A DNA stretch of 18,857 nt from an uncultured bacterium. Lineage in GTDB: Bacteria; SAR324; NAC60-12. Position numbers and translations under genes: made by a program. The stretch is taken from NCBI GenBank assembly GCA_964010765.1, contig CAXGMD010000068.1, forward strand, positions 1-18,857, given 5' to 3'. The notes beneath the pieces were generated by a model. It did no database searches. It was not told where the DNA came from and saw only the letters and a program-made list of their open reading frames with translations. Of this stretch, positions 890-15,599 are shown one piece after another. Every line of letters starts with the position of its first letter. Positions within the stretch are counted from its first letter, which is position 1.

Positions 890-912
890 CTACCACAACT
901 TTTAGTTAAATT

Positions 913-1268: not shown

Positions 1269-1296
1269 TTATCAATTCATAGATAGAGATTGTCAA
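1269..1296 (-). promoter_or_regulatory. possible sigma70-type promoter for 913..1197
   Basis: Perfect TTGACA on the minus strand at 1296-1291; only a weak -10 (GATAAG at 17-nt spacing). Confidence 0.3.
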
Positions 1297-1448
1297 GAAT
1301 TTAGACCAAAGTCGGATCGATCCAGACGATGACCATGAGTCGTTATCCAGCGCAATGACTGGGTACGGTCAGAAATGAAGGCGAATGGTTGGTCGGAATA
1401 ACTTTGGGAGATGATTCAGGAAGCCACAGTCATTTGCGGAATAGAGTT

Positions 1449-1474
1449 GCAGTTCCACTTGAATATGGAACTGC
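1449..1474 (-). terminator. 9-bp hairpin 15 nt downstream of the SnoaL-like gene
   Basis: GCAGTTCCA-N8-TGGAACTGC perfect stem; poor U-tract. Confidence 0.4.
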
Positions 1475-1489
1475 GGCGCTGTCGAGAAG

Positions 1490-1864
1490 TTACATGGCCT
1501 TCATGACGGAAGCTAATTTTTGCGAATCATCAAGAATATGAAACTCAACCGTTTTCCCATTCTGAATTTTGTATAGATGTCCAAAATCACCTTGCATTCC
1601 TTCTGCTGTACCATGCACTAAAGCAAAGACGTAATCGCCTTCTGCAACCATCAGCTTTGGTTCTACTTTAAAATTCTCAAAATGACTTGGAATGTGTGCA
1701 AGAAAATCATTGATGAAGCTATCAGGTCCATGATAGGTCCCTGAAAACTTATGCATACCATTCACTTTGATGACTGCTTTTTCATGCATCAAAGATTTGA
1801 TAGTACCCATGTCTCCAGCAGCAAAACTGTCATATCCTTTTTGAACAACTTCTTTGGGTGTCAT
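1490..1864 (-). CDS. SnoaL-like / NTF2-family protein (124 aa)
   Basis: 'EVVQKGYDSFAAGDM', 'SGTYHGPD', 'MVAEGDYV' and 'HLYKIQNGK' are typical of SnoaL/KSI-like proteins; GGAG RBS. Confidence 0.9.
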   Translation of the reverse strand: MTPKEVVQKGYDSFAAGDMGTIKSLMHEKAVIKVNGMHKFSGTYHGPDSFINDFLAHIPSHFENFKVEPKLMVAEGDYVFALVHGTAEGMQGDFGHLYKIQNGKTVEFHILDDSQKLASVMKAM

Positions 1865-2103
1865 GTCATCTCCAATTTTAGGGTGTTGAAAATATTTGAG
1901 GTAAGTTTCGGCAAATTCTGCTGAAACGTCTGAAAAATAATAATTCTTTTGAGATTATTTTCAATCTATTAGTTGGAAGCAAACATATAGTAATGAATGG
2001 ATATGCCAGCCAAGATGGTAGGCCCTGCTTTTCAAGAAATGCAACTGTAGTTGGACACCTTTCGCAGGAACTACAAGGATTCAATAGTTCCAGTTTCGTA
2101 TCG

Positions 2104-2401
2104 TTAGCCCCGTCTTACTTGAATTGGTAAGACTCCCGTCCCTGTGTCCAATCCTCTGCCCATTCCAGAGGGGAAGACGTTTAAGCTGGCACCGTAACAT
2201 AGTAGGCGATAGCCATCAGCTTCAAAGAGGAGGTGAGCTTGTTCCAAGGCATCAAAATAGTCGATTCTCCGACCCTCGGTTGCTCGTCCTTCACAGGTAA
2301 CACTAACTCTACATTCACCATACTTAACATCCTCCCATTCGACTCTTGCTTCCGCCTTGCTCCCATCAGGACACAGCAAGGGTAGATGTGATGGTCGTCA
2401 T
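2104..2401 (-). pseudogene. degraded hypothetical protein gene
   Basis: Core 'DYFDALEQAHLLFEADGYRLLCYGASLNVFPSGMGR' looks like a real conserved bacterial hypothetical. The nearest ATG (2401) is out of frame with the core and the C-terminus appears frameshifted. Confidence 0.5.
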
Positions 2402-2449
2402 TGGGTCTTAAGATTTTTCTTTGGTCGCTAGTTGCCTCTTGAAAGCTTC

Positions 2450-2890
2450 CTAAAGCTTATGAATAACATGCCGTACCACTCCCCAAATTTGAAAATCATC
2501 ATCAACTGAAATGGGAATGCTGTCATAGTCTGGATTCTCCGGCTGTAGCTCAAAACACTCCCTTGTCTGCACCAGTCGCTTGAGAGTGAATTCCCCGTTG
2601 AGAGAAGCAATCACAACTTTTCCATTGGGTTTCTTCTTGGAGCGATCCACGATCAGTAAATCCTGATCAAAGATGCCTGCGCCAGTCATCGAGTCCCCAT
2701 TGGCACGGACAAAGAAAACATTGTTGGGGTCTGGAATCAGATAATGATGTAGGTTGAGATAACCGTCGTAGTAATCCTGAGCAGGGCTGGGAAATCCTGC
2801 GGAGACCATCGATTCAAACAATGGGCGCTGGTACTGATCTGCAATTGGGGAATGAACAGGCAGGACGAAGGTGAATGACAATAGGTTCAT
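2450..2890 (-). CDS. umuD: UmuD/RumA-like S24 peptidase, translesion polymerase V accessory subunit (146 aa)
   Basis: Ala-Gly cleavage site 'VSAGFPSPAQDY', catalytic Ser in 'GDSM', catalytic Lys in 'FTLKRL', C-terminal 'IWGVV'; no LexA DNA-binding domain. Confidence 0.92.
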   Translation of the reverse strand: MNLLSFTFVLPVHSPIADQYQRPLFESMVSAGFPSPAQDYYDGYLNLHHYLIPDPNNVFFVRANGDSMTGAGIFDQDLLIVDRSKKKPNGKVVIASLNGEFTLKRLVQTRECFELQPENPDYDSIPISVDDDFQIWGVVRHVIHKL

Positions 2891-2902
2891 AAAAAGTTTT
2901 TG

Positions 2903-3292
2903 TCAGCTTTGCGTGTAATCTTCACAACGGTGTAAGTCGGCTTTGGCAACAGCTTCATCTCTAAGTTTCATGTTTTTAGCTGAAGATGGCGCTGTCATTA
3001 AATTCAGAAATGCTTGGTGTGAGGGATACCAAATCCCCAAAACCTCATCGATATCTTGAGTGCCAACTACCTGTCCAAAAACTTCTGTCCTCCAGAGAAT
3101 CTTTCCACCAACTTCTTTTAGCAATTGCTGAAGAACTTTCATGTAGGCTTGATACAACTTTCCGGTTGGGTAATCAGCAACATCCCGATACTTGTTGAGA
3201 TTTAACATAAAAACAGCATCGTCTTGACTCCCGTGGGCAATCACTTTCATCTTTTCAATTTCGGTCAAATTGACACTTGGCAGTTCAGCCAT
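2903..3292 (-). CDS. DUF1330-like dimeric alpha+beta barrel protein (129 aa)
   Basis: 'VFMLNLNKYRDVADY', 'VGGKILW', 'DEVLGIWYPSHQAFLNL' match the DUF1330-related pattern; GAGG RBS. Confidence 0.85.
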   Translation of the reverse strand: MAELPSVNLTEIEKMKVIAHGSQDDAVFMLNLNKYRDVADYPTGKLYQAYMKVLQQLLKEVGGKILWRTEVFGQVVGTQDIDEVLGIWYPSHQAFLNLMTAPSSAKNMKLRDEAVAKADLHRCEDYTQS

Positions 3293-3401
3293 TTTTGCCT
3301 CTTGTAATTCTGGGGTGAATATGGTGTGTGATCCTTAGCATCTATGAGGGATTTGAAACTGGGAGGGATCCGGTTGGATGGGATCTCAGGTGTTTGGTGG
3401 A

Positions 3402-3659
3402 TTAAGAAATTTTCTCAAGCGCATAGACATCAGCAACAGCATTGTTTGCTGCATTCCATTCTTGAACCTTTGGTGATGACATGACGTTTTGGAGGCCTTC
3501 CATATCAGTCACATTCAACAGTCCAACTGCCGTATTGTCATTCATTTTTGTCACTTCCCACGCAGAAGTGTAGCGGCGCACATCATCTCCTACCTCCGCC
3601 AGCATTGCCGTAAACTCTTCGTAAGAACAATCAAACTTTGTCACGATACAAATATTCAT
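3402..3659 (-). CDS. small hypothetical protein (85 aa), likely alpha+beta barrel type
   Basis: ATG at 3659 (MNICIVTKFDCSYEEF…) preferred over the TTG at 3692, which lies inside a hairpin; 'VTDMEGLQNVMSSPKVQEWN'. Confidence 0.8.
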   Translation of the reverse strand: MNICIVTKFDCSYEEFTAMLAEVGDDVRRYTSAWEVTKMNDNTAVGLLNVTDMEGLQNVMSSPKVQEWNAANNAVADVYALEKIS

Positions 3660-3683
3660 AGAATTCTCTTGATCAGAGGATTG

Positions 3684-3706
3684 GGGATTCAATCGAATTG
3701 AATCCC
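3684..3706. terminator. perfect 10-bp intergenic hairpin
   Basis: GGGATTCAAT-CGA-ATTGAATCCC, 16 nt past the stop of 3723..4052; no U-tract, so it may be a stability element or operator instead. Confidence 0.4.
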
Positions 3707-3722
3707 GTTGAAGCAGTCGAGA

Positions 3723-4052
3723 TCATTTCAGAGGAGTCGCCCCTGTTTCTAGTCGAGTGACTTGGCCATCCCTGATCGTATGAACACTCATTAAAGCCTC
3801 CTTGCTTCCGTCTGGATACTCATTGAATTCGTGAGCAACCCCAATCTCATCATTTTCGTAAATCACCCTGAAGTCCTTGGTGATAACAGTTGGTGCACCG
3901 GGTTTGAACCAATCCCAACCAAGCATTTCTGCTTTGGTGACTTCCGTTCCACTTTGATGACGTACAAAAACAAAATCATCAGCCATCAATTTATCCAAAG
4001 TTTCCAAATCTTTTGCATTAAAAGCATCATGTAAATCTTTCATTAGTCCCAT
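3723..4052 (-). CDS. NTF2/SnoaL-like protein (109 aa)
   Basis: 'DAFNAKDLETLDKLMADDFVFVRHQ', 'RVIYENDEIGVAH', 'VHTIRDGQVTRLETGATP'. Confidence 0.88.
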   Translation of the reverse strand: MGLMKDLHDAFNAKDLETLDKLMADDFVFVRHQSGTEVTKAEMLGWDWFKPGAPTVITKDFRVIYENDEIGVAHEFNEYPDGSKEALMSVHTIRDGQVTRLETGATPLK

Positions 4053-4086
4053 TCTTACCTATCCCAGTTAGAGTATGAGATCCTAT

Positions 4087-4416
4087 TTATTGATTTGGCG
4101 CCTGATACGCAGAAACCACTTTGTTGGCAGTTTCCATTGCAGAGGTCATTGACTTGGAATCAATGATTTCGATCGCTTCAAAAGAGCTAAAGGTTCCAGT
4201 TGATGAAGTAACCATTTCAACAGCGGCCATGTTTTCTGCACTGCCTTCCATGATCGCCACGATCTCAGCACTGCTCACACTGAAGTAGAGGTTATGCATT
4301 TTAACATTGAGTGCAGAAAATAGTTTATTGGCAGCCTCCTCCCGATCTTGGGGGTTATCAACCATCCCCTTGAATGCCGCATTGCTATACTTTGCTCTCG
4401 CCAGATAAAGCGCCAT
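4087..4416 (-). CDS. GYD-domain protein (109 aa)
   Basis: 'YLARAKYSNAAFKGMVDNPQDREEAANKLFSALNVKMHNLYF' is the GYD-family N-terminus, although the GxYD signature itself is diverged; TAAGGAG RBS. Confidence 0.85.
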   Translation of the reverse strand: MALYLARAKYSNAAFKGMVDNPQDREEAANKLFSALNVKMHNLYFSVSSAEIVAIMEGSAENMAAVEMVTSSTGTFSSFEAIEIIDSKSMTSAMETANKVVSAYQAPNQ

Positions 4417-4572
4417 GATTTCTCCTTACTTTTGGGTATATGATTGTGATGCGAGTATGAACGCATCAATGAATGTAGTCCAAATAAATAGTCAGTAGAG
4501 GAAAATCTCAATAGGTTTCTTCAACCATCAGCAGGTTCCACAGAACCAAGTTCTGAGACTCAACGGGGTGGC

Positions 4573-4653
4573 TCAATCACACAACGCCTCACAGAGCACC
4601 CCATCCTTATCACCATCCAGTCGACTGAGTCCACATTGACTGAAATAATAGAC
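4573..4653 (-). pseudogene. isolated 3' remnant of an Excalibur Ca-binding-domain gene
   Basis: Hand translation VYYFSQCGLSRLDGDKDGVLCEALCD* matches the Excalibur CG…LDxDxDGxxCE motif; no start or upstream body. Confidence 0.8.
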
Positions 4654-5259
4654 GCCTGTACTAGTCTGCAATGGAAGGTTGATCAGACAGGATGAAGGTG
4701 ATTTCTGAAAAGTTCATGTAAGGGTCTTGGATATTGAAATTAATGGGTTGAGACTAATCAAAATTTGAGCAGTGAAACCTAAATTTTTGCAACGAGTCCT
4801 AAAATATGATCAACACTTCTAACAGTATCACTGGAGAATTGTCTGTAGATTCTGCAAGAATACTCTCTGTGTGTCTGAATTAAAATTTGAGTGATCGAAA
4901 TGAACTCACAAATTTCTTGTCGAACAAGCCTAATTTTACTAAAAGTGAAAGCAAGAAATTCATTATCAAAAAAAATTACTCCAAAATAAATTTTTATTGA
5001 TAATTCTTAATGGCCTCTTTTTCTAGGTAAGTGCACAAGCAATTGCAATTGGCTAATAAACTAAGGGTTCGTGATAAATTTTGTTATGCCTTACATCTGC
5101 CAAAATCAGTTTCCTTCGAAAAGTATGGAAATAATCGGTACCATATGACTGCAGTATGTTCATCAGCGTTAAATTGTCTTCACTACAGAAATTCGTCGAA
5201 TCACTGAGTCCTTTATCTCTGTAAAAAACTTATTTAATTAATTCAACCTAAAAAGATTT

Positions 5260-6072
5260 ATGAAAAATTTGGAACTGAAGAAAAAATTAAAAGAAGGTGA
5301 TTTAGTCTTGGGTACACTCATCATTTCAACATCACCTTTTTGGCCAAAAATCTTGAAAGATTGCTCACTAGACTTCATCTTTATTGACACTGAGCACATA
5401 GCTATAAGTCGTGAAACGCTATCTTGGATGTGTAGAACATATTCAGCAATGGGTCTTCCTCCCTTAGTGAGAATGAAATCTCCAGATCAGTATATTGCTA
5501 CTGAGTTTTTAGATGACGGGGCAGCAGGAATTATTTCACCGTATACCGAGACTGTCACTCAAGTCAAAGAATTGGTAGGTTCTACCAAAAAGAGACCGCT
5601 AAAGGGTGATAAATTAAACCAATTAATGGCAGGTACAAAAAACTTAGATGAATCACTAGATGATTATATTCATAAATTTAATGGGGACAATTTATTAGTA
5701 TTAAATATTGAGAGTGAACCTGCTGTAGAAAATCTTGACAAAATTTTAGATATTGAAGGCATTGATGCTATTCAAATTGGACCACATGACCTTACAACAA
5801 GTTTAGGAATTCCTGAGGAGTATGATAATCCCATTTACCTAAACACTATTGAGATAGTTTTCAAGAAAGCCAGATCAAAATCTGTTGGAGCAGGCATTCA
5901 TGCTTGGGGTACTCCTGAGTATCAAAAAAGATTACTGGACCTTGGTGCAAATATGCTAATCCACAAGGCAGATGCTCTCTTCTTTAGGGACGGATTAGAG
6001 AATGACCTTAATGAAATTAGGAGCTTAGTTGGTGAGAATAACGTCAGTAGAAGAGAGAATATTAGTATCTGA
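5260..6072 (+). CDS. HpcH/HpaI aldolase family protein (270 aa)
   Basis: 'DFIFIDTEH', 'PLVR', 'LDDGAAGIISPY', 'NIES', 'IGPHDLTTSLG'; visibly more AT-rich than its neighbours. Confidence 0.92.
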   Translation: MKNLELKKKLKEGDLVLGTLIISTSPFWPKILKDCSLDFIFIDTEHIAISRETLSWMCRTYSAMGLPPLVRMKSPDQYIATEFLDDGAAGIISPYTETVTQVKELVGSTKKRPLKGDKLNQLMAGTKNLDESLDDYIHKFNGDNLLVLNIESEPAVENLDKILDIEGIDAIQIGPHDLTTSLGIPEEYDNPIYLNTIEIVFKKARSKSVGAGIHAWGTPEYQKRLLDLGANMLIHKADALFFRDGLENDLNEIRSLVGENNVSRRENISI

Positions 6073-6333
6073 AAAAATATTATTTTTTTGAGTAAAATTT
6101 ATGATTTTATGCATCTGAGCAAATAAAAATGGTTACTTGATCCCACATAAATTGATAAGTGGGCGGTCTGCAACTAAAGATACGATAGAAAATCATATGT
6201 CTTGAAAAATACTTATTTGAACATAGATATATCAATATCGAATTTCTATAGAACAATTGAAAAATTCAATGGCCAACTTCCAATTTATATTGGCATCTCA
6301 ATGCACTTTCGCAAAGAGATCGGGGAACACACA

Positions 6334-6872
6334 ATGAGGACTACAACCAGATTGAAAATCTTGATTACACTGGCTGGGATCTTCTTTCTGGTATATTCAA
6401 ACAACTTGCTAGCTTGTCATGAATCTGATTTTGATGGAGAAGAACTTTTGGTGGGTACTTATTTGGAGGTCACACTGGAGACAATAAAATGGGAAGGGCT
6501 GTTTCGGTGAGAGAAAATATCAAAATATTGACCGGAAACATCACTCAGGCGACCACCATTACCTCCAATTACACGATTGATACTTTCGCGACAACTACAA
6601 ACTGCAACTGGCGTACTGCCAATATCCAGAAGTTCTTCAATGATAGTTACTGGCAGATCGCAGAAGAGAGTGCCCAAGGATCTGGAAGGCATCTGGAAGC
6701 ATTAGCCTCACTAACTGGATGTTCTGTTGACCAGCACGCCACCTTTGAGACTGTCATTCACCACAACCATGCATACATCTTTGCGTACAAAGACTACGAT
6801 GGTTCCATCAACAACTTCTTCACAGTCCTCAACACAGACAAAGATCTGAAGCAGTGTTTTGGACATTCGTAG
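6334..6872 (+). pseudogene. frameshifted secreted DUF3015-like protein
   Basis: The signal-peptide frame (MRTTTRLKILITLAGIFFLVYSNNLLA, ATG 6334) stops at 6510. The domain frame ('QIAEESAQGSGRHLEALASLTGC') is open from 6435 to 6872. A single frameshift between 6435 and ~6508 joins them. Confidence 0.7.
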
Positions 6873-6884
6873 GCATTACGCTGC

Positions 6885-7647
6885 TCAATCACTCAGCGCC
6901 TCACAAGGCAAACCCTCACCATCCCTATCTAGATTCTTCATCCCACACTAGGTTTGTAAAGCCTTGGCCTCATCACAAATAATCATCTTCTTGCAAGTAC
7001 CTCTTGGCGGAGCAATTCACTTGCGCCACGCGTAACTTGGTGCTGAATGGATTGATCGCACCACCACACTCCTCTGCCATCAGTGGCATCTCTGCATCAA
7101 CCCCCAGAATCACGCTGAGAGCAACAATTTCCTTGGCATCACCAGTCAAACCCCACTTCAGTTTCAAAGCCACCCAAGCTCTCGCATACTCTGCTTGATA
7201 TGATTGATTGGGAGGCAGCCAATCTGCTGGATCATCAGCGCCCTTCTGCCGGTTGAGGCCTCGATCCACGGCAATGAGGGTGTTCGGGTCACTCAGATCA
7301 TTGGCGTAGTCTCGCTTTCTTTAAGCATCCCAAGCAATCCCACCAGATTCATGTGCTTCCTTCAGAGGCACCATGTGATCAATGTCCAACTTACTGGCAT
7401 CCGTGATGGTTCTGCCAGAATACGGGTCATTTCCGCTTCCTGAGATCACTCGACAACCCTTTGAGGTCTTGAACCCAACCGTCGAGAAGGACTCCGCGAT
7501 CAGCAATTAATGACGAGCATTCTGGCAATCACGATCTTCGTCAATCCAGTGGCGGTAGCTCTTGCGGTCGTATTTTGGGCAAATAGCAGAATCCGCAAGA
7601 ACAGTTGTTGTCAGTAGTAGGAATAGTATTGTCAGTAGTGTCTGCAT
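6885..7647 (-). pseudogene. secreted DUF1524/HNH-type nuclease with C-terminal Excalibur domain, inactivated
   Basis: Signal peptide MQTLLTILFLLLTTTVLA, then 'HWIDEDRDCQNARH*', 'DPYSG', 'LDIDHMVPLKEAH', 'DA*RKRDYAND', 'NRQKGADDPADWLPPN'. In-frame TAA stops at 7507-7509 and 7321-7323. A frameshift near 6996 leads into 'CKKMIICDEAKALQT*CGMKNLDRDGEGLPCEALSD*'. Confidence 0.9.
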
Positions 7648-8027
7648 TATTTGTAGTCTTCCCAGTTCCAGTCTTGGCCTTCGCTGGGGTCGTAGTCTAG
7701 TTCTCTACCATCAGTTTTCTGAGTAAATATTTTTCCATCTTTGTACGTGGCCTGAGTAGTAGCACAGCGGTATATCTCATAATCTTTGAATCGGCTGTAA
7801 ACTCTGATGGTCAGATTCTCCTCACTTTCAGACACGACTTCATAGGCACCAAGAACAATGGAATCACTAAGTGTTGAAACCACAACTTTATCGTCATTCA
7901 GATTGGATTTGATACCTGTCGTATGATCGATAGTTGAATATTCAGGATGATAAATTTCATCCACCAGTTAGAAATACCTTTTGAATCCAAGACGCCAAGC
8001 TTTCTCGTAGGCCTCTGCTCTAGTCAT
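7647..8027 (-). pseudogene. SnoaL/NTF2-like protein gene with one in-frame stop
   Basis: AAGGAG RBS and ATG at 8027 give MTRAEAYEKAWRLGFKRYF*LVDEIYHPEY…DPSEGQDWNWEDYK*. The TAA at codon 20 is in frame; the final stop overlaps the next ATG (TAATG at 7649-7645). Confidence 0.8.
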
Positions 8028-8031
8028 TTTC

Positions 8032-8092
8032 TCTCCTTATGCTGGTATCCGTGATTTGATTTCTGCGAAGAAATACCCCACCGACTGCTTGC
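8032..8092 (-). repeat. 61-bp dispersed direct repeat, copy A
   Basis: Ungapped hand alignment: 52/61 identical to copy C and 48/61 to copy B; ends in TAAGGAGA just before ATG 8027. Confidence 0.9.
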
Positions 8093-8101
8093 CTGCTCTA
8101 A

Positions 8102-8140
8102 TTATTCCCACAAACTTTGGATGATTTTCATTTGATTAAC
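8102..8140 (-). pseudogene. 3' remnant of a paralog of the 10438..10833 gene
   Basis: Translates VNQMKIIQSLWE* versus FNQMKVMQSLWD*, at the same distance from the 61-bp repeat. Confidence 0.8.
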
Positions 8141-8253
8141 TGGAACTTCATTGGACCGGCTGGTGTTGTCCTATTCCGCAAGTCTCTGCGGGAATCCTTT
8201 TTCGTGACAAAAGATCTCAAGCCCATAGCTGTTCATGATTTCATCAGCCGTAA

Positions 8254-8300
8254 TAGGACGTCATTTAGGACCTACTGTGTGACGTCATCTTAGGACATCA
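8254..8300. repeat. four phased 10-bp direct repeats (consensus TAGGACRTCA)
   Basis: TAGGACGTCA 8254, TAGGACCTAC 8266, TGTGACGTCA 8278, TAGGACATCA 8291; spacing 12/12/13 bp. Confidence 0.75.
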
Positions 8301-8426
8301 CTGGAAATTGGTTTGACTCAAGCTATCCAATATTCTTAAGTGATTGAGGTATGTTTTAGTTTTTTTACAAGAAATTTTCCGTAAACCGTGTACCAGCATA
8401 CTCAACAGCCAAACGAAATTTAACGT

Positions 8427-10274
8427 ATGAAATTGAACATGATCTCAAAGCAAATCAGCCCTCTGATCATTCTCATATTACTTGCTAGCTTTCAATGGTC
8501 TTGTAGTGGAGGTGGTGGAGGCGAAAAGACCGAAAATCTGTCCTTGCAAGTCACAATTTCTTACCCTAGAGATAACTCATCTGTGGTTGGAACCGCAGTT
8601 TACTCCCTGAAATTCAGTGAAGCTGTAACTGGGTTGACGGGCAACAATCTTAATGCTGCTTGTGAAGGTAGTATCCAATTGAGTTCCGATAATGGTGAAA
8701 TTTGCTATCCAATCTCGATCAATAGTGCAGACAATATCAGCTGGACAGTTGATCCGGTGGGGGAACTCAGTGATGGTGCCTACAGCCTAACAGTGACCAC
8801 TGGCATCCAAAATCTCTCCGCTATCTCCCCTGTCAGTCCAACTAGCGTGACCTTCAACGTCAAGGATGCCCTCTCAACTATTGCCAACCAGCTGGAATTA
8901 GATCTCATAAAAGCTGATCTCTCTAAAGATCTTGCTGAGGCTGCAAAAGCTGGTGCACGAACTGCGGCTGGTAGTGAAACAAATGATCTACTCAATGTGA
9001 TTCCAGCAGCCTTTGATGGTGCTTTCGATGCGGTTGCTGCGGCTGGACTGAACGAAACCCTCACGCAGGCCGCCCTCAGCACCATCATTGAGTCCCTGCT
9101 ATCCAATGTGGCCGGCCAAGCATCACTGGTCAATGACAACTCTGCCGCACGTGTTGCCGTTCTGCCCGCAAACTTCTCAAGCTTGTTGAAGAGCCTAACA
9201 ACTAGAGTTGCGACAAAATCTGCTGGCAACAGCACGACTCTGCAAACATTGGCCACGGCACTGGTCAGTAGTCTTCCTGCAGCTGGAGCAACGGCAACTG
9301 AAATCGAGACTACCTATGTCAGAACTATTGTGCAGACGACAACTACGATAGTCATGACCAAGAACACAGATAAAATGACTAGGGACAGCGTATTGGTTGG
9401 ACTCGGGGCTGGTGTAATTGCTGGGGCCAAGAGAATTACAGAAATGACGGTTAATGTGGATACGATTCAAACGACAACTACTGAATCAATGACAGCAGCT
9501 GCAAACAGCAGTGACGCAACCTATGATGTCAGCACAGTTACCACTGCGATGGTGTCAGTAGTCAACTCCGAAACGCTAACCAGTTGCTCTTTGAACGGTC
9601 AAACAGTTGCTCACGGGAGTACGATAACAGCCTATCAAGCACTCTCGGTGGATTTTGGAAATACTTGTACCAGTGAAACCCGAAGTTGTTTCAATGGAAC
9701 ACTGAGTGGAGCCTACACCAATACAAGCTGTACAGTAGCGGCCGCAGCCAGTTGCTCTTTGAACGGTCAAACAGTTGCTCACGGGAGTACGGTAACAGCC
9801 TATCAAGCACTCTCGGTGGATTTTGGAAATACTTGTACCGGAGAAACCCGAAGTTGTTTCAATGGTAATTTGTCCGGCAGCTATACCTACACTAACTGTA
9901 CGGTAAGCGCTGCCAGCCAATCATCATCGGATTACAGCGCAGATGGGACCACATTTAAAATCACTGTGAGCTCATCCGGCTATTATTCGAACAAATATTA
10001 TGTAGACAGCGTACAAACTAAGTCGTTGAATTTGAAGAAAGGCTTTACCTATTATTTTAACGTCGATGATTCTTCAACAAACAGTCACCCTTTGTTTATT
10101 GGGACATCATCAGGGGGAGGAAATTATGTCAACGAGTATTCATCAGGAATTACGAATAGCCGTGCTACAAATGGTATTTTGAGTTTTACTGTGCCTACCG
10201 ATGCACCTTCCACCCTTTATTACAATTGTGGTCTTCATTCCAACATGGGAGCAGAAATCTCAATTGTTGACTAA
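8427..10274 (+). CDS. surface lipoprotein (615 aa): Ig-like domain, Ala/Thr-rich helical region, two Cys-rich repeats, C-terminal cupredoxin-like domain
   Basis: Hydrophobic signal plus 'WSC-SGGGGG' lipobox-like site; 'LKFSEAV…VDPVGELSDGAYSLTVTTGIQNL' resembles Big_5; 'SHPLFI…LYYNCGLHSNMG' gives an H/C/H/M spacing like a type-1 copper site. Confidence 0.9.
   Translation: MKLNMISKQISPLIILILLASFQWSCSGGGGGEKTENLSLQVTISYPRDNSSVVGTAVYSLKFSEAVTGLTGNNLNAACEGSIQLSSDNGEICYPISINSADNISWTVDPVGELSDGAYSLTVTTGIQNLSAISPVSPTSVTFNVKDALSTIANQLELDLIKADLSKDLAEAAKAGARTAAGSETNDLLNVIPAAFDGAFDAVAAAGLNETLTQAALSTIIESLLSNVAGQASLVNDNSAARVAVLPANFSSLLKSLTTRVATKSAGNSTTLQTLATALVSSLPAAGATATEIETTYVRTIVQTTTTIVMTKNTDKMTRDSVLVGLGAGVIAGAKRITEMTVNVDTIQTTTTESMTAAANSSDATYDVSTVTTAMVSVVNSETLTSCSLNGQTVAHGSTITAYQALSVDFGNTCTSETRSCFNGTLSGAYTNTSCTVAAAASCSLNGQTVAHGSTVTAYQALSVDFGNTCTGETRSCFNGNLSGSYTYTNCTVSAASQSSSDYSADGTTFKITVSSSGYYSNKYYVDSVQTKSLNLKKGFTYYFNVDDSSTNSHPLFIGTSSGGGNYVNEYSSGITNSRATNGILSFTVPTDAPSTLYYNCGLHSNMGAEISIVD
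9580..9915 (+). repeat. intragenic tandem duplication, 2 x 168 bp (56 aa, 4 Cys each)
   Basis: CCAGTTGCTCTTTGAACGGTCAAACAGTTGCTCACGGGAGTACG starts at 9580 and 9748; nearly identical over the first ~115 bp, more diverged after. Confidence 0.95.
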
Positions 10275-10367
10275 ATTATATTGCTTGTGCTGGAAAATGC
10301 TTTGGAAGATGAAGTGCTTTCAGAAAAGCCTGATGCCGTAAAGCATTTTTCAACTTTGGTCATTTTC

Positions 10368-10428
10368 TCTCCTCATGCTGTTGTCCTTGCCTTGATTCCT
10401 GCAATGGTATACCCAACCAACTGCTTGC
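10368..10428 (-). repeat. 61-bp dispersed direct repeat, copy B
   Basis: 49/61 identical to copy C; begins 9 nt after the stop of 10438..10833; ends TGAGGAGA followed by GAAAATGACC. Confidence 0.9.
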
Positions 10429-10437
10429 CTGTCCTGA

Positions 10438-10833
10438 TTAATCCCAAAGGCTCTGCATTACCTTCATTTGGTTGAAACACACCCACTCCAAGTTATATGT
10501 TTGAACCATTGACCAGAGTTCTTCAGCAATTTCTTTAGTTTCGATCCAGTGATGGTGAAGTCCATCCTCAGTTTCGTAGACTTCAAACAAGTTAAATATC
10601 GTCCTTCCTGTTTTTTTTGGGTACTTCCCATCAAAAAACTCACTGAACCCAGCGTATTCTGGACTCTCAGAAACAACATACTGAACCAACTTTAGAGGGC
10701 CTTCACGATAACTTTTATTTTTCATGAATTCGTAGTGACCTTCGAAAAAAATCCTTAACGCTTCGACGGCACTTTCATTTGGTGCAATCCAAGTAATAGA
10801 GGCAGTTGACTTCCCTTTGAGTTCATTTGCCAT
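10438..10833 (-). CDS. hypothetical protein (131 aa), likely dimeric alpha+beta barrel fold
   Basis: AAGGAG RBS supplied by repeat copy C; 'IFNLFEVYETEDGLHHHW' resembles the ABM-type ExYxxxxxxxxH motif. Confidence 0.85.
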   Translation of the reverse strand: MANELKGKSTASITWIAPNESAVEALRIFFEGHYEFMKNKSYREGPLKLVQYVVSESPEYAGFSEFFDGKYPKKTGRTIFNLFEVYETEDGLHHHWIETKEIAEELWSMVQTYNLEWVCFNQMKVMQSLWD

Positions 10834-10840
10834 AGCTAGT

Positions 10841-10901
10841 TCTCCTTATGCTGCTATCCGTGATTTGATTGCTGTGTTGGTATAGCCCACCAACTGCTTG
10901 C
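10841..10901 (-). repeat. 61-bp dispersed direct repeat, copy C
   Basis: Minus strand GCAAGCAGTTGGTGGGCTATACCAACACAGCAATCAAATCACGGATAGCAGCATAAGGAGA. Confidence 0.9.
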
Positions 10902-11379
10902 AATACGCTCCAAAATCTACTTCCCCCCACCGCCCTCCAAGCTTATCTGGTTGGCTGACATAATTGGAAGCACAAACACGCTGCTTTCGTCAACCAATCC
11001 CAAAGAGGCACCATGCAGTTTGGACAAACTGATAACACCAACCTAATTATTGGACTCTGGACAATTTGCATTGTTGGAGTCTGTGTTTCATTAGCAGTCC
11101 TAGAAACAGTCATGCAAGTGCCGGCTGTTCAGTAACCAGAGTTTCGAATCTGAATCCAGCTGGGGTCAAGCCATTCTCTGGATATGATTCCATTCAGGGC
11201 ATGGCTATCGGATTCAGAGAGGCATTTCTATCGTTCTTTGTAGGCTTGGCGACTTCGTTATTTCTCAGAGCTTATGCTGAACATCTGAAGAGAAAAGAAT
11301 TGGCCAAGGGACCAGCGGAGGTTGAGATTCCTACTTCCTGAAGAAACAGTTCGTTGTGTAACTGTGCTGCAAAGAGTTA

Positions 11380-11440
11380 CTGTCAGTTGACGGGCAGTTG
11401 AGGAAAGGAAAGTGGCGCTACTGGCAGTTGCTGTCAGTTG
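11380..11440. repeat. two pairs of 10-bp direct repeats CKGKCAGTTG, integrase arm-type-site-like
   Basis: CTGTCAGTTG 11380, CGGGCAGTTG 11391, CTGGCAGTTG 11421, CTGTCAGTTG 11431; 60-120 bp from the tRNA fragment. Confidence 0.8.
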
Positions 11441-11502
11441 AAATAAGTAGTTTTAGAGGAAATGATCAAGGCCGCAAGTAGTTGAATTTACTAGCGAAGG
11501 TA

Positions 11503-11547
11503 TGGTGGCGGGGGCAGGATTTGAACCTGCGACCTTCGGGTTATGAG
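11503..11547 (-). mobile_element. att core: 3' 45 nt of an initiator tRNA-Met(CAT) gene, not a complete tRNA
   Basis: Minus strand CTCATAACCCGAAGGTCGCAGGTTCAAATCCTGCCCCCGCCACCA covers the anticodon loop, T-arm, acceptor 3' strand and CCA of tRNA-fMet. Upstream sequence (…TTTTTACACAGTA) has no D-arm or 5' acceptor strand. Confidence 0.93.
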
Positions 11548-11721
11548 TACTGTGTAAAAATCAATTTACTTCAGTATTAATACGGCCTTGAAGGAAGTGG
11601 GGCTAGTTCACGGTGAGTTGAGGAAGATCCTGACACCTGACCGAGCAAGTTTCGAGAAGTTTCCTCAGGCAGGTTGACATACGGTAGTGTTGGGATTGAT
11701 CAAAACAATGTCCATGTTCCG

Positions 11722-13239
11722 TTACTCCATTCCCTTTCCGACGCTGTCGCCGACCCATCGATTAATGCCCAAGTCCTGCGCCGCTGCCTTTAGATACATC
11801 TGTCTGTAGGCGGGATGCCATTCCTCGGCTTCAGCTGCCGCGGCACGCAGCCCGGCCCGACGATCATTTGCCAGCTGACGGGATTCTTCTCGGATTGTTC
11901 TTTCATCCATTGTTTGAACGCGGCCACCCGAGAACACGATCCGACCGTCGATCATGGTGAGCCGAACCGAACTTCCATTCTCGCAATAGACGAGTTGACG
12001 ATGAATGTCGTTTAACGGTGTGAAAGCGAGTGTATCAAGATCGATCAGGCAGAGGTCCGCCGTTTGGCCCGGCGCAATGGCGCCAACATTGTCGGACCGC
12101 ATGGCGCGGTGACCGCCCAAAATCAGGCAGTCGAGCACCTCAAGCGCTGTCGGCCATGTCTCATAGTCAGGATCAGCAATGTTGTGGATGAGCCCCGTCA
12201 TCTTGGCGACTGCCCACATATTCACAGCATCATCTGCGATCGCTTCATCCGTGCCGAGCGCAATCGGAATTCCTTGGTCGCGGATGGCGCGAAACCGCAT
12301 GACGCCACTACCCAGGCGGAGGTTACTGATAGGATTGTGCGCAATTACGGCGCCAGCGCGGGCGATCCTGTCCAAATCCTCATCATCGACCCACACCGCG
12401 TGGATAACATTTGTCCGCTCCGTCAAGATACCGAGATCGTCGGCTAGTACGACCAAGGACCGGCCACTCAAGGTATCTACACCAAGTGCCCGTTGGACCT
12501 TGGTCTCGAGGATATGAACATAGAACGGAAGGTCATGGGTTCGTGACAAATTTTCCAAAGCCTGGGCATAAGTGGGCGTGACACGCTGTGGTGCCGAGCA
12601 GGATACGGCAGCGCGGATACGTCCGCCCGCCGCACCATGCCAACGGGAAATCAGGTGTTCATACATCTCCAACAATTGTTCAGAACCGACTTTCGGTTTC
12701 ACCGCCAGGCGACGGCGTTGGTTGTCATTCATGATCTGGTCGAGAAAGGGCAGCTTATCGGCTTCCGCCACGTCCGATTGGTCCAGCGCCACGCGGGCCC
12801 GAAGCCCGCTGTCTTCATAGGCTTGCAGGACAGCGTCAATGATGGCCGGCTCTGGGTACGGAACAAAAAAGGCGTCGTCCTGGACGGCCGTGACTCCGTT
12901 GCGGATCATTTCGAGGCATGCCAGCAACGTCCGCACGTAGGCTTCTCGCGGCGTCGGCCGCAACGCTTCGTTGGCCGGGGATTCGTAGAGCATGAACAGT
13001 TCCAGTGGCAGGCTGGGCAATGCTCCCTTCATGTGGTTCACCGGTGAATGGAAATGCGCATTGACCAAGCCAGGCATAACCAGCATGCCGGCGGCATCGA
13101 TCACATCAGCATCAGCAACTCCTGACAACAGGCCAACACTGACAATGCGCCCGTTTTCGATCAAAACGTCTTCCGGTTCTGGTTCTTCTGAGGTCTCCTC
13201 CCCTCTCCAGATCCATCCATTTTTAATCAGCGTTCGCAT
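11722..13239 (-). CDS. metal-dependent amidohydrolase, AtzA/TrzA/SAH-deaminase-like (505 aa)
   Basis: 'MPGLVNAHFH', 'VHILET', 'IHAVW', 'HNPISNLRLGSG', 'LGTD'. Confidence 0.93.
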   Translation of the reverse strand: MRTLIKNGWIWRGEETSEEPEPEDVLIENGRIVSVGLLSGVADADVIDAAGMLVMPGLVNAHFHSPVNHMKGALPSLPLELFMLYESPANEALRPTPREAYVRTLLACLEMIRNGVTAVQDDAFFVPYPEPAIIDAVLQAYEDSGLRARVALDQSDVAEADKLPFLDQIMNDNQRRRLAVKPKVGSEQLLEMYEHLISRWHGAAGGRIRAAVSCSAPQRVTPTYAQALENLSRTHDLPFYVHILETKVQRALGVDTLSGRSLVVLADDLGILTERTNVIHAVWVDDEDLDRIARAGAVIAHNPISNLRLGSGVMRFRAIRDQGIPIALGTDEAIADDAVNMWAVAKMTGLIHNIADPDYETWPTALEVLDCLILGGHRAMRSDNVGAIAPGQTADLCLIDLDTLAFTPLNDIHRQLVYCENGSSVRLTMIDGRIVFSGGRVQTMDERTIREESRQLANDRRAGLRAAAAEAEEWHPAYRQMYLKAAAQDLGINRWVGDSVGKGME

Positions 13240-13278
13240 CAGTTCAGCGCTCCACTGGAAAGTCGAAGTTCGAATTCT

Positions 13279-14820
13279 TTAGAGGCGTGACGAACTTGGA
13301 TAAAACGGGGCACGTTCTATTTCTCCATCAAGATAGTTTTCGTAAAACGCTTCCACACTCTCGAAGACCTGCTCCCTCAAATCCCTTCGAGACTGTTCCT
13401 CGTCACTTAGCGGCTTTGAAAGCTCCCGGGATATCGTGTCCAGAATTTCTTCACGACTGACGCCCATGAATTCACCGTCCTGATAGACGATCGTACCATC
13501 GACCATGACGCAATGGACATCCTTGGACTTCGCCCTGTAAATAAGGGCGTCGAGAGGGGCAATATCGGGACTTTGATATGGGAAGGTGGCACTATTGTAA
13601 TCAATAACGACAGCATCCAGCTTTCGGCCAGGATCCAAACGCCCGATCTCCGTTCCGAACGCCGTTGTCCGCCCACCGTGTTCCGTCGCCATACGCATAA
13701 TTTGGGCAGGGTTTGGTACGGCGCTGTGGTCCATCCCGGGGACCCTGTGCACGGTTAAGGCCATCCGCATTTCCTGAAGCATGTCCCGGTCTTCATTAAT
13801 ACCTGCTTCATCAATGCCGAGTCCGACAGTCACGCCCCTTTTTTCCAATTCCATCAAAGGCAGCAGGCCACTGCGAAGCCGGAAATTGGAAGAGCAGTTA
13901 TGGCATACACAGGTACCTGTAGCGGCCACCATCTCAATATCTTCTTCGGTCATCCAAACCCCGTGACCCAAGGTCAGGGATGGGCCGAGAAGCCCAAGTT
14001 TTTCGAGATGCTTTACGGCCGTCGTCCCAGTTCTTTTCCGGGCATATTCCTTCTGGTACGCCGTTTCCAATAGGTGCATGTGCATGGGCATTCCGGACGC
14101 ATCCGAGCGCTCTTTCATAGCGAGCAGCCCCTCATCCGTCATCCAATGCAGATTTGCGGGAGCCAACTGAATACGGGCCCGTGGATTTTCGTTGGCTTCC
14201 GTCAGGTCCTCGAACAACTGCATGAACTCAGCTAAAGAGAGATTTTGTCGAGACAGATGTGCGGCCATCGCCTTGCCAGCTGCGGGCGGTAACCTCTTGC
14301 AGAATTCCTCATCGGCTTCATAAACAAAACGATTTTGTTCTCGCACCGCGTAGCAATAGGAAACTCGCATGCCAACAGCCCGATAGGCCGCCAATACCCC
14401 CATTGCAGATGCCTTGACTTCCTCATAGTCGCCAACTGCCCAGCCCTGAATGTGCTGAACGGTCGTGATGCCGGAAGAAATCATCTCAAATGCTGAGTAG
14501 AGCGTATCGAGATACGGATCAACGCTCCGAAAGGAAAGCCGCGCGGCAAACCACAGTTCCAGGGCATAGTCCGGAGCGCCCAACTGCAGAGGCGTCAGGC
14601 CGATATGATGGTGACTGTTCACCAATCCCGGCAAGATAAGGTGATGAGGGTATGCGGTTTCAGGAGCCCCCGGGTAATCTCGGCGCATGTCCTCCAGTGA
14701 GCCGATGGCGAGAATGACTCCATCTTCATGTGCCAAGGCGGCGTTTTTATGAATATCAGGGACATTTTCGGTGGTCGTGCCCGTCACAATCCAACGTGCA
14801 CTCAGCAAAGAAACCGTCAT
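13279..14820 (-). CDS. metal-dependent amidohydrolase, same superfamily (513 aa)
   Basis: 'LPGLVNSHHH', 'MHLLET', 'GHGVW', 'HNCSSNFRLRSG', 'LGID'; ATGA overlap with the upstream ATPase gene. Confidence 0.93.
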   Translation of the reverse strand: MTVSLLSARWIVTGTTTENVPDIHKNAALAHEDGVILAIGSLEDMRRDYPGAPETAYPHHLILPGLVNSHHHIGLTPLQLGAPDYALELWFAARLSFRSVDPYLDTLYSAFEMISSGITTVQHIQGWAVGDYEEVKASAMGVLAAYRAVGMRVSYCYAVREQNRFVYEADEEFCKRLPPAAGKAMAAHLSRQNLSLAEFMQLFEDLTEANENPRARIQLAPANLHWMTDEGLLAMKERSDASGMPMHMHLLETAYQKEYARKRTGTTAVKHLEKLGLLGPSLTLGHGVWMTEEDIEMVAATGTCVCHNCSSNFRLRSGLLPLMELEKRGVTVGLGIDEAGINEDRDMLQEMRMALTVHRVPGMDHSAVPNPAQIMRMATEHGGRTTAFGTEIGRLDPGRKLDAVVIDYNSATFPYQSPDIAPLDALIYRAKSKDVHCVMVDGTIVYQDGEFMGVSREEILDTISRELSKPLSDEEQSRRDLREQVFESVEAFYENYLDGEIERAPFYPSSSRL

Positions 14821-15599
14821 AGTCGTTCTTGCTCCTCAAAGGCTTTATCGACTTCCTCGGCGAGCAGCGCATCGCATCGCTTGGCAAGTTCAATCATTTC
14901 TGGGGAATGAGGATCACGTGGCCTCGGTCTGTCGATTTGAATTTCGGCCTTAATGCGCCCGGGACGTGCAGAGAAAACGACGACCCTGTCCGCTAACGCT
15001 AGGGCTTCGTCGATTGAATGGGTCACCAGCAAAACCGAGGCGCCGGATTCCTTCCAAATACTCAACAAATGGTTCTGCATCCGTGCTCGGGTCTGAATAT
15101 CTAGCGCCGCGAACGGCTCATCCATAAGCAAAACCTTGGGCCGCATCGCGAGGGCCCGAGCGAGAGCGGCTCTTTGGCGCATGCCGCCAGAGAGTTCATG
15201 AGGACGACGCTCCCCGGCGCCGGCCAAGCCGACCTGTCGCAATAATTCTTCAGCGCGTTTTTCACGAGTGACCCGCGGCGTATTGTTGACTTTCAGGCCG
15301 AAGGTGATGTTGTCACGCACCGACAGCCACGGAAACAGTGATGCTTCTTGAAAAATCAAACAGCGCTCAGGTGATGGGGCGGTAATTTCTAGCGCATCGA
15401 ATTTAACGGCACCGGCAGTCGCTTCTTCCAATCCCGCCACGATATAAAGCAACGAGCTTTTGCCACAACCGGACGGACCTAGCAGGACAACAAACTCACC
15501 TAACGCGACTTCCAGTGAGAGATTCGATATTGCATGAACCGGCTCAGGCCCCTCCGGATTCCAGGTTTTCGAAACATTCTTAATGGACAACCCCATCAT
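14817..15599 (-). CDS. NitT/TauT-family ABC transporter ATP-binding protein
   Basis: Walker A GPSGCGKS, signature LSGGMRQR, Walker B LLMDEPF, VTH. Start moved to ATG 15599 (MMGLSIKNVSK), just after the permease stop. Confidence 0.95.
   Translation of the reverse strand: MMGLSIKNVSKTWNPEGPEPVHAISNLSLEVALGEFVVLLGPSGCGKSSLLYIVAGLEEATAGAVKFDALEITAPSPERCLIFQEASLFPWLSVRDNITFGLKVNNTPRVTREKRAEELLRQVGLAGAGERRPHELSGGMRQRAALARALAMRPKVLLMDEPFAALDIQTRARMQNHLLSIWKESGASVLLVTHSIDEALALADRVVVFSARPGRIKAEIQIDRPRPRDPHSPEMIELAKRCDALLAEEVDKAFEEQERL

What the first reader, a model, noticed from the sequence alone, without database searches (positions are those of the whole stretch)
8032..10901. 61-bp gene-tail repeat that supplies stop + RBS to different small genes and brackets one like a cassette
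Seen: three ungapped direct copies (A 8032-8092, B 10368-10428, C 10841-10901; 79-85% identical). Each ends in T(A/G)AGGAGA 4-7 nt before an ATG, and the downstream ORF differs each time. C and B flank the 131-aa gene as a 473-bp unit. The copies translate as KQLVGYTNTAIKSRIAA*, KQLVGYTIAGIKARTTA* and KQSVGYFFAEIKSRIPA*. B versus C includes five silent changes (GTG/GTT, GGC/GGG, AAA/AAG, CGG/AGG, TAA/TGA), so the repeat appears to derive from a coding 3' end. In A and B it has no gene body and starts 9 nt after another gene's stop. Inference: a conserved gene tail acts as a recombination anchor where small genes accumulate and gain a translation signal, an integron-like outcome without attC sites. 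No recombinase is visible in this window.
Basis: partly seen in the sequence, partly recalled or inferred. Interest (0 to 1): 0.85.

Follow-up and report, generated by a model that had tools for sequence, protein, structure and literature searches.

The report
Gene-tail spacer in SAR324 gene arrays
The repeat is a leftover copy of the last 17 codons and ribosome-binding site of a regulator-like gene, reused as the spacer in front of two families of small genes in one genus of marine SAR324 bacteria, where it marks the points at which gene modules get swapped; it is a lineage-specific curiosity and not a new kind of integron.

Summary
The three copies are real. They belong to a family I call REP: 7 copies in this genome and 81 matches in 7 of 9 genomes of the genus.

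I found the parent gene. P is a 227-aa winged-helix protein whose true C-terminus plus Shine-Dalgarno (SD) sequence is the repeat. Copies outside P show no coding constraint. They form no attC-like hairpin, and no integron integrase was detected.

Downstream cargo is narrow. In a metagenome sample, 67 copies had a downstream ORF of 30 aa or more. Of these, 52 were a SnoaL-like family (Y), 12 a second family (X) and 2 a 60-aa lipoprotein.

[REP+gene] modules recur with different neighbours. One pair is 99.7% identical from the first base of REP onward. Homology switch points are spread along REP.

My reading: REP is a fossil gene tail that supplies the translation start region and acts as a homology patch for ordinary recombination in tandem paralogue arrays.

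The integron-like capture of diverse genes does not.

The parts
10832..10904 (-). It lies between the leader and gene X and ends in TAAGGAGA, 7 nt before the ATG.
10438..10833 (-). Gene X, 131 aa. It has no Pfam family. Paralogues lie on C19 (70% identity) and C258 (64%).
10359..10431 (-). REP copy B. It starts 9 nt after the X stop codon and is followed only by a 30-codon relic with a Y-type start (ATG 10363-10361).
8427..10274 (+). A 615-aa predicted lipoprotein gene on the opposite strand. It occupies the space between REP-B and REP-A, has no Pfam family, and contains an internal 158-nt tandem duplication. Its homologues lie on other contigs in relatives.
   Evidence: (D1)
8101..8137 (-). 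3' remnant of a second X paralogue (ends ...QSLWE*), directly upstream of REP-A.
   Evidence: (D3)
8023..8095 (-). REP copy A.
7647..8027 (-). Y1, a SnoaL-like Y-family gene with an in-frame TAA at codon 20 (probable pseudogene). REP-A plus Y1 is 88.6% identical to the first module of G002:C631.
6973..7647 (-). Z, a signal-peptide nuclease-like gene. Its intact homologue carries GmrSD_C and Excalibur domains. The window copy has two in-frame stops, and its start overlaps the Y1 stop codon.
10905..11502 (-). Conserved array head ('leader'). It includes a roughly 250-nt block (10922-11173) that is 92% identical to C168:1136-1387. That block carries a conserved 40-aa hydrophobic ORF on the + strand (11013-11135).
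11503..11547 (-). A 45-nt copy of the 3' end of a tRNA-Met(CAT) gene, probably a scar of an island attachment site. The full gene ends contig C122.

Best explanation
REP is a non-coding fossil of the junction between gene P and the first SnoaL-like gene Y. It comprises the last ~17 codons of P, P's stop codon embedded in a TAAGGAG Shine-Dalgarno sequence, and the spacer to the ATG.

Inferred history: a duplication whose left end fell inside P's tail produced the first [REP-Y] unit. The unit then multiplied, and REP also came to precede X, a 60-aa lipoprotein gene and, once, a pentapeptide-repeat gene.

REP now does two things.
1. Inferred: it gives each cistron its own translation start region, made of a strong SD and an A-rich, poorly structured upstream tract.
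2. Shown by comparison: together with the conserved ends of the Y genes, it is the shared homology tract at which [REP+gene] modules are gained, lost and swapped within and between arrays. Because the switch points are spread along REP, I infer ordinary homologous recombination (unequal crossover or gene conversion) and not a dedicated site-specific recombinase.

The arrays lie in variable, island-like regions beside tRNA genes or tRNA fragments.
For: Origin:
- The P ORF on C256 ends in the REP peptide.
- 368 P homologues were found, and 24 aligned ones share the tail. L210, G212, L215, E222 and K224 are invariant, and one tail reads ...QQLVGYTIAEIKARTTA.
- The tail is a predicted helix.

Spread:
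- 7 copies in the own genome.
- 81 matches in 7 of 9 genus genomes.

Not coding outside P:
- Variability by codon position is 0.248, 0.241 and 0.214 in 47 copies.
- Some copies carry stops or frameshifts.

Constraint independent of context:
- Core identity is about 0.66-0.70 whatever the neighbour or genome.
- Only the SD-spacer part tracks the downstream family (0.726 against 0.572; 0 of 500 shuffles reach this).

Module exchange:
- Window REP-A+Y1 (7654-8092) matches G002:C631:3115-3553 at 88.6%. There the module follows the leader directly, and that leader+REP matches window 10841-11544.
- The downstream flank, window 4085-7080, matches G005:C39 at 86%, but the arrays differ.
- Among 103 junctions there are 16 collinear pairs, 27 that share only the downstream side and 17 that share only the upstream side.
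- One pair is 99.7% identical from REP base 1 onward, with a Y gene upstream in one and an X gene upstream in the other.
- 26 of 44 estimated switch points fall inside REP and are spread over its length.
Against: - REP is not exceptionally conserved. In 12 Y-REP-Y junctions, mean pairwise identity is 0.31-0.69 in REP, 0.80-0.83 in the Y 3' end and 0.36-0.56 in the Y interior.
- Same-genome copies are no more alike than copies from different genomes, so there is no sign of ongoing homogenisation.
- Five of 8 Y paralogues in this genome have no detectable REP upstream, so REP is not required for Y.
- Most shared modules are only 82-93% identical. Old rearrangement plus differential loss explains them as well as active shuffling does.
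- The 44 pairs are not independent, and the change-point model is crude.
- Translation-start function is untested, and no RNA data were examined.
- All genomes are fragmentary MAGs, and REP often sits at contig ends.
Confidence: 0.6

Rival explanations
1. REP is the attachment site of a true cassette system. [REP+gene] units excise as circles and re-insert at REP in the P tail or at array heads, catalysed by a dedicated enzyme, for example the tyrosine recombinases seen near two array heads.
For: - The 99.7% identical module has its boundary exactly at REP base 1.
- Some arrays end in a terminal REP with no gene after it.
- Phage-type tyrosine recombinase genes lie near heads on C168 and G005:C72.
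- tRNA genes or fragments lie at heads.
- There are 12 P 3' fragments of varied length.
Against: - No integron-integrase match reaches the family cut-off in the genome.
- A recombinase is seen at only 2 of the heads examined.
- REP has no inverted-repeat core or hairpin.
- Switch points are dispersed.
- Cargo is limited to 3-4 families.
- No skip of one unit and no convincing circle junction appeared in the laid contigs. The 'goes back' joints have 33-43-nt sides and read as ordinary Y-end-to-REP junctions of paralogous arrays.
Confidence: 0.12
2. REP is a cis-regulatory element on DNA or RNA. It lets one trans factor co-regulate every cistron it precedes. Candidates are the winged-helix protein P, CsrA acting on two GGA motifs (one of them in the SD), or a small RNA.
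For: - Nucleotide-level, context-independent conservation of the core.
- REP always sits immediately 5' of a start codon.
- A GGA motif occurs at the upstream site in 25 of 52 copies and in the SD in 38 of 52.
- A csrA gene is present.
- P has a DNA-binding fold.
Against: - No Rfam match in the window.
- No conserved structure: alifold -2.36 kcal/mol.
- The upstream GGA is missing in about half of the copies.
- REP persists in genomes where only broken P fragments were found (G002, G006, G008), though those assemblies are incomplete.
- A duplex scan of REP against the leader was uninformative.
Confidence: 0.15
3. REP has no function of its own. It is a slowly decaying relic carried along by duplication of [tail+Y] units, and its apparent conservation reflects only the SD and shared ancestry.
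For: - REP identity is only modestly above the Y interior.
- There is no within-genome homogenisation.
- Many copies are degenerate or terminal, with no gene after them.
Against: - A 12-nt core about 25 nt upstream of the SD varies at only 2-23% of copies per position.
- The Y proteins around it are only 31-59% identical to a reference Y.
- REP precedes unrelated families (X, lipoprotein, pentapeptide), which requires repeated retention.
Confidence: 0.13

Closest known systems
Integron gene-cassette arrays (IntI integrase, attI and attC sites)
   Same: Direct arrays of small, same-strand genes separated by a repeated element of about 60-70 nt. Modules are found with different neighbours. The repeat lies between one gene's stop codon and the next gene's start.
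   Different: - No integron integrase was detected.
- The repeat is not a hairpin-forming imperfect palindrome.
- The crossover position is not fixed.
- Cargo is essentially two paralogous families.
- The repeat carries the RBS and derives from a protein-coding tail.
Recombinase-associated acquired interbacterial defence (rAID-1) clusters of Bacteroidales (bioRxiv 10.1101/471110; I read the passages found)
   Same: Arrays of small genes with repetitive intergenic sequences, described by their authors as reminiscent of integrons. They lie outside classical integrons and in horizontally acquired regions.
   Different: - rAID-1 has a conserved XerD-family recombinase at the head and genes homologous to immunity genes.
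- Here a tyrosine recombinase is near only 2 heads, and Y and X match no immunity or defence family.
- The origin of the rAID-1 intergenic repeat in a gene tail is not reported in the passages I read.
Orphan toxin-immunity modules downstream of cdiA and rhs genes (recalled from general knowledge, not checked in a paper here)
   Same: A fragment of a parent gene's conserved coding sequence is repeated in front of successive modules and serves as a homology patch for recombination.
   Different: In those systems the fragment is fused in frame to a variable toxin domain. Here REP ends in a stop codon, is not under coding selection, and precedes complete, independent genes.
Intergenic repeat families inside operons, such as REP/BIME, ERIC and Correia elements (recalled)
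   Same: Short multicopy elements in transcribed intergenic positions that can affect expression of flanking genes.
   Different: - Those elements are palindromic or carry terminal inverted repeats, and they occur next to many unrelated genes.
- REP has no inverted repeats.
- REP has one fixed orientation relative to the downstream start codon.
- REP is tied to 3-4 gene families.

Membership tests
Integron | Integron integrase (IntI) gene in the genome or next to the array | tested here: not met
   A TIGR02249 search of the own genome (92% complete) gave a best score of 36.7 bits against a cut-off of 265. The C168 recombinase scores 22 bits.
Integron | attC: an imperfect palindrome that folds as a single-strand hairpin with inverse core sites (feature list recalled) | tested here: not met
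   DNA folds of both strands of A, B and C give -4 to -8.3 kcal/mol, with z-scores of -0.35 to -2.57. The alifold consensus is one 6-bp stem at -2.36 kcal/mol.
Integron | Crossover at one fixed position in the site | tested here: not met
   Estimated switch points are spread over REP positions 1-75 and into the flanking gene ends.
Integron | Functionally diverse cassette cargo | tested here: not met
   Of 67 downstream ORFs in the metagenome sample, 52 are Y, 12 are X, 2 are the lipoprotein and 1 is unassigned. In the genus sample, the extras are one pentapeptide-repeat gene and two copies of the lipoprotein gene.
rAID-1-like recombinase-associated array | Conserved tyrosine recombinase gene at the array head | tested here: inconclusive
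   Phage-type tyrosine recombinase genes lie near the heads on C168 and G005:C72 only. Other heads start with P, with the leader, or at contig ends.
rAID-1-like recombinase-associated array | Repetitive intergenic sequence between array genes | tested here: met
rAID-1-like recombinase-associated array | Array genes homologous to immunity genes | tested here: not met
   Y gives only weak SnoaL_2 matches and X gives none. Neither has a PADLOC or PHROGs hit. No dedicated immunity-protein library was searched.
Tandem paralogue array evolving by unequal homologous recombination | Direct repeats of paralogous units with shared homology tracts at unit boundaries, and variable copy number and order between relatives | tested here: met
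   Y paralogues are 31-59% identical to a reference Y, in arrays of 1-4 units. The arrays differ at a locus with a conserved flank. Switch points lie in REP and in the conserved Y ends.
MITE / REP-type mobile intergenic repeat | Terminal inverted repeats or a palindromic body | tested here: not met

The most novel reading that the evidence does not exclude
A fossilised gene tail has become the universal adaptor of a cassette-exchange system that works without an integron integrase. [REP+gene] modules of the Y and X families move among ten or more array heads per genome and between co-occurring SAR324 strains, through circular or linear intermediates. This would give the lineage a shuffled repertoire of small proteins linked to a secreted nuclease gene, possibly a protective or immunity-like set. 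It would be a functional analogue of an integron built from a coding-sequence relic.
Probability: 0.13. Interest if true: 0.72.

Novelty: new variant of a known kind. Interest (0 to 1): 0.38.

Why it matters
This is a clean, traceable case of an intergenic repeat family born from the coding 3' end of a neighbouring gene. The repeat is then reused both as a portable translation start region and as the homology patch that makes a multigene family modular.

It explains why these SAR324 assemblies break at these loci. It also marks a genus-specific, multi-locus, fast-changing gene set in an abundant, uncultured ocean lineage: P, Q, Y, X, a 40-aa membrane peptide, and a secreted GmrSD_C/Excalibur nuclease-like gene.

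It does not open a new class of recombination system on present evidence.

Tried and rejected
- **Rfam scan.** The window scanned at E up to 1 gave 0 matches.
- **RNA or DNA structure of the repeat.** Weak.
- **A translated leader peptide or read-through product.** Rejected: codon positions vary equally, there is no consistent start codon, and some copies have stops or frameshifts.
- **The leader as a decayed P or Q gene.** No similarity beyond REP.
- **Empty-site comparison.** Window 11700-15000 has no DNA match in the other 8 genus genomes at E 1e-20 or better, so no empty site could be defined.
- **Public runs.** 19 runs from 8 studies hold at least half of the sampled words. I laid four of them. 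All are short contigs (the longest listed piece on the stretch is 797 nt). None joins across exactly one 473-bp unit. The 'goes back' joints have sides of 33-43 nt, and I read them as junctions from paralogous arrays. This gives no verdict on deletion variants or circles.
- **Duplex search between a repeat consensus and the leader.** About 1.5-2 sd better than shuffles, which is uninformative.
- **Foldseek on the P model (pLDDT 71).** Only weak winged-helix matches: MarR-type regulators and plasmid initiator N-domains, best E 4e-3.
- **PHROGs and PADLOC for P, Q, Y and X.** Nothing useful.
- **ESM Atlas for X.** Only unnamed clusters, plus a weak ABM lead at 0.83.
- **Literature.** A search for 'SAR324' plus 'integron' listed 4 unrelated soil or manure papers (listing only). 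I found no description of this repeat, and I made no wider search.
- **Earlier scan notes.** A look-up by this repeat's sequence and a look-up by key words both returned nothing.
Full report
**Observation.** The window is the whole of contig C68 of a 266-contig genome that is 92% complete. Related records are titled 'Deltaproteobacteria bacterium' MAGs, and earlier notes of this scan call the genome a marine SAR324 bacterium.

B is 79% and C is 85% identical to A, and the spacings are 2336 and 473 nt.

The genes lie on the minus strand. Read on that strand:
- Each copy ends in TAAGGAGA or TGAGGAGA, 4 or 7 nt before an ATG.
- Copy C precedes the 131-aa gene X (10438-10833).
- Copy B follows X and precedes only a 30-codon relic.
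- Copy A follows a 37-nt 3' remnant of a second X paralogue (D3). It precedes a SnoaL-like gene, Y1, that carries an in-frame TAA.

**Extent of the family.** I call the repeat family REP.
- A profile of the three copies finds four more in the same genome: C256 (two), C258 and C168, all at E 1e-9 or better.
- A sequence-only covariance model gives 81 matches at E 0.01 or better in 7 of 9 genomes of the genus. The counts are G000 7, G002 33, G005 20, G006 7, G007 7, G008 6, G003 1, G001 0 and G004 0.
- By BLASTN, 8 of 41 relatives (own genome included) match. Six of the 8 other genomes of the genus match. One other genus gives a single 27-nt match.
- Many copies lie at contig ends, including the end of my own C256, so the arrays are under-assembled.
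- Runs of copies spaced about 440-470 nt apart are common. Examples are G002:C631, G002:C409, G005:C117, G006:C175 and G008:C95.

**The parent gene.** On C256 an ORF of 229 codons, which I call P, ends in ...ALVGFVVGEVKSRIPA*. Its TAA lies inside the TAAGGAG that serves the next gene.
- P has 368 homologues at E 0.001 or better among 671 candidates. All listed ones are about 226-227 aa and unnamed, and none has a Pfam family.
- In an alignment of 24, the tail is part of the conserved C-terminal domain. L210, G212, L215, E222 and K224 are invariant, and one homologue ends ...QQLVGYTIAEIKARTTA, which is essentially the REP reading.
- An AlphaFold model (pLDDT 71.2) shows an N-terminal winged helix and a helical C-domain whose last helix is the tail.
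- Foldseek gives only weak winged-helix matches, to MarR-type regulators and plasmid initiator N-domains, with best E 4e-3.

P distribution across the family:
- P is found in 8 of 45 genomes of the family.
- Three copies are intact and full-length: G000:C256, G007:C108 and G005:C117.
- Twelve rows are 3' fragments of 27-82 residues, most with internal stops.

**Is REP still coding?** In the five P tails for which I hold DNA, the peptide is kept through synonymous and conservative changes.

In 47 copies outside P, variability at codon positions 1, 2 and 3 is 0.248, 0.241 and 0.214. Several copies have premature stops, a lost stop or a frameshift, and there is no consistent start codon.

REP outside P is therefore not under coding selection. 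The 'silent changes' are inherited or coincidental. The 'stop' is simply part of the extended SD.

**What REP is not.**
- Rfam gives nothing in the window at E up to 1.
- The consensus fold is one 6-bp stem at -2.36 kcal/mol.
- Single-strand DNA folds of both strands of the three copies give -4 to -8.3 kcal/mol, with z-scores of -0.35 to -2.57.
- No integron integrase reaches the family cut-off in the genome.
- REP has no inverted termini.

REP is therefore not an attC site and not a MITE-like element.

**What REP precedes and follows.** For 52 genus copies with 200-nt flanks, the upstream/downstream contexts are:

| Upstream / downstream | Count |
|---|---|
| Y / Y | 12 |
| Y / other | 10 |
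| leader / Y | 8 |
| Y / X | 6 |
| P / Y | 5 |
| leader / other | 4 |
| X / Y | 3 |
| leader / X | 3 |
| X / other | 1 |

The 15 'other' cases break down as follows:
- two copies of a 60-aa lipoprotein gene;
- one pentapeptide-repeat gene;
- three diverged or truncated Y genes;
- nine with no credible gene.

In an independent sample from metagenome contigs, 122 loci were fetched with a 20-nt core motif, and 80 REP matches fell on 61 of them. Sixty-seven had a downstream ORF of 30 aa or more. Of these, 52 were Y, 12 were X, 2 were the lipoprotein and 1 was unassigned.

The cargo is therefore essentially two paralogous families. It is not an open-ended set.
- Y gives weak SnoaL_2 matches.
- X has no family, with only a weak ABM lead.

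**Architecture of a locus.** Arrays start either with P or with a conserved leader.
- P is preceded by Q, a 247-aa protein with an HTH, a coiled coil and a TM segment.
- In the window the leader runs from 11502 down to 10905.
- The leader begins right after a 45-nt copy of the 3' end of a tRNA-Met(CAT) gene (11503-11547). The complete gene ends contig C122.
- The leader contains a block of about 250 nt that exists in two alternative types. This block encodes a conserved 40-aa hydrophobic peptide on the opposite strand.
- Arrays can be followed by Z, a signal-peptide protein with GmrSD_C and Excalibur domains. In the window, Z (6973-7647) has two in-frame stops.
- Tyrosine recombinase genes lie near two heads, on C168 and on G005:C72. 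The latter also has a tRNA-Leu gene beside it.
- Window 11700-15000 has no DNA match in the other genus genomes.

The arrays therefore sit in variable, island-like DNA.

**Evidence for module exchange at REP.**
- Window REP-A+Y1 (7654-8092) is 88.6% identical to G002:C631:3115-3553. There this module follows the leader directly. The same leader+REP matches window 10841-11544 at 81.8%.
- Relative to that arrangement, the window therefore has X, REP-B, the reversed lipoprotein segment and the X remnant inserted between one REP and Y1.
- The REP of G002:C631 resembles copy C in its 5' half and copy A in its 3' half (sequences).
- The downstream flank, window 4085-7080, is 86% identical to G005:C39, yet the two arrays hold different Y paralogues.
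- Among 103 junctions with 250-nt flanks, pairs aligned at 88% or better over 150 nt or more comprise 16 fully collinear pairs, 27 that share only the downstream side and 17 that share only the upstream side.
- One pair is 99.7% identical from the first base of REP through the Y gene. It has a Y end upstream in one contig and an X end upstream in the other.
- Other pairs switch at about REP positions 15, 38 and 62.
- A crude change-point estimate places 26 of 44 switches inside REP and spreads them along it. Fourteen fall in the last 90 nt upstream and 4 in the start of the downstream gene. The pairs share loci and are not independent.

Dispersed switch points argue for ordinary homologous recombination within a shared tract and against a site-specific enzyme.

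**Results that temper this reading.**
- In 12 Y-REP-Y junctions, mean pairwise identity is 0.31-0.69 within REP, 0.80-0.83 in the last 30 nt of Y, 0.81 at the Y start and 0.36-0.56 in the Y interior. REP is constrained, but not strikingly so.
- REP core similarity (about 0.66-0.70) does not depend on the upstream context, the downstream family or the genome. Only the SD-spacer part follows the downstream family (0.726 against 0.572; 0 of 500 shuffles reach this). There is thus no sign of within-genome homogenisation.
- Five of 8 Y paralogues in this genome lack a detectable REP.
- The four public runs I laid are short contigs.

**Mechanism.** The following steps are shown:
- the origin of REP in the P tail;
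- the loss of coding constraint outside P;
- the fixed position immediately 5' of start codons;
- the narrow cargo;
- modules occurring in different contexts, with switch points in and around REP.

The following steps are inferred:
- An early duplication with one end inside P's tail created the first [REP-Y] unit.
- REP is kept because it provides a strong SD with an A-rich, unstructured upstream tract.
- Unequal crossover or gene conversion at REP and at the conserved Y ends drives gain, loss and reshuffling.

A regulatory role cannot be excluded. It could involve P binding, CsrA acting on two GGA motifs (present in 25 of 52 and 38 of 52 copies; csrA present), or a small RNA.

**Comparison with known systems.** The arrangement resembles integron arrays and the rAID-1 clusters of Bacteroidales. 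[quoted passage not shown]

It fails the integron membership tests on integrase, site structure, fixed crossover and cargo diversity. It meets only the intergenic-repeat feature of rAID-1.

It is best filed as a tandem paralogue array whose spacer is a fossil gene tail. That makes it a new variant of a known kind.

**Verdict.**
- Observation: confirmed.
- Interest: moderate to low (0.38).
- Chance that a true enzyme-driven cassette system lies behind it: about 0.13.

Noticed in passing
window 11503-11547 (-): A 45-nt copy of the 3' end of a tRNA-Met(CAT) gene lies at the start of the array leader. The full gene ends contig C122. Everything to the right (window 11700-15000 tested; amidohydrolases, ABC transporter) has no DNA match in the other 8 genus genomes. 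It looks like an island attachment scar with an island on the right.
   Followed up: partly
window 11013-11135 (+); also C168, C27 (three copies), C249: A conserved 40-aa hydrophobic single-helix peptide gene lies inside the roughly 250-nt leader block, divergent from the array. It is multicopy and exists in two allelic block types across the genus.
   Followed up: partly
window 6973-7647 (-): A nuclease-like gene with a signal peptide has two in-frame stops, and its start overlaps the stop of Y1. The intact homologue in G002:C631 carries GmrSD_C and Excalibur domains. Y1 also has an in-frame stop, so the distal end of this array is decaying.
   Followed up: yes
window 9580-9905 (+): A 158-nt tandem duplication (88% identity) lies inside the 615-aa lipoprotein gene and gives two Cys-rich repeats.
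   Followed up: no
L095 (G007:C108) 4374-5672 (-): A 432-aa protein with RRXRR and HNH domains (IscB-like) is encoded convergently just downstream of an intact P gene.
   Followed up: no
L095 2257-3000; L076 9098-9841: A conserved 247-aa gene (Q) lies directly upstream of intact P. It has an N-terminal HTH, a coiled coil and a C-terminal membrane segment, and no Pfam family.
   Followed up: partly
window 900-4500 (-): A run of small same-strand genes (SnoaL_2, Peptidase_S24, DUF1330, SnoaL-like, GYD) has no REP between them. Window 3000-4053 is 96% identical to G005:C31.
   Followed up: no
window 4571-4620 and 6883-6932: A 50-nt direct repeat (74% identity) coincides with the two Excalibur-like tblastn matches, at window 4576-4647 (to the Z C-terminus) and 6888-6995. 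This suggests a second broken Z-type gene.
   Followed up: no
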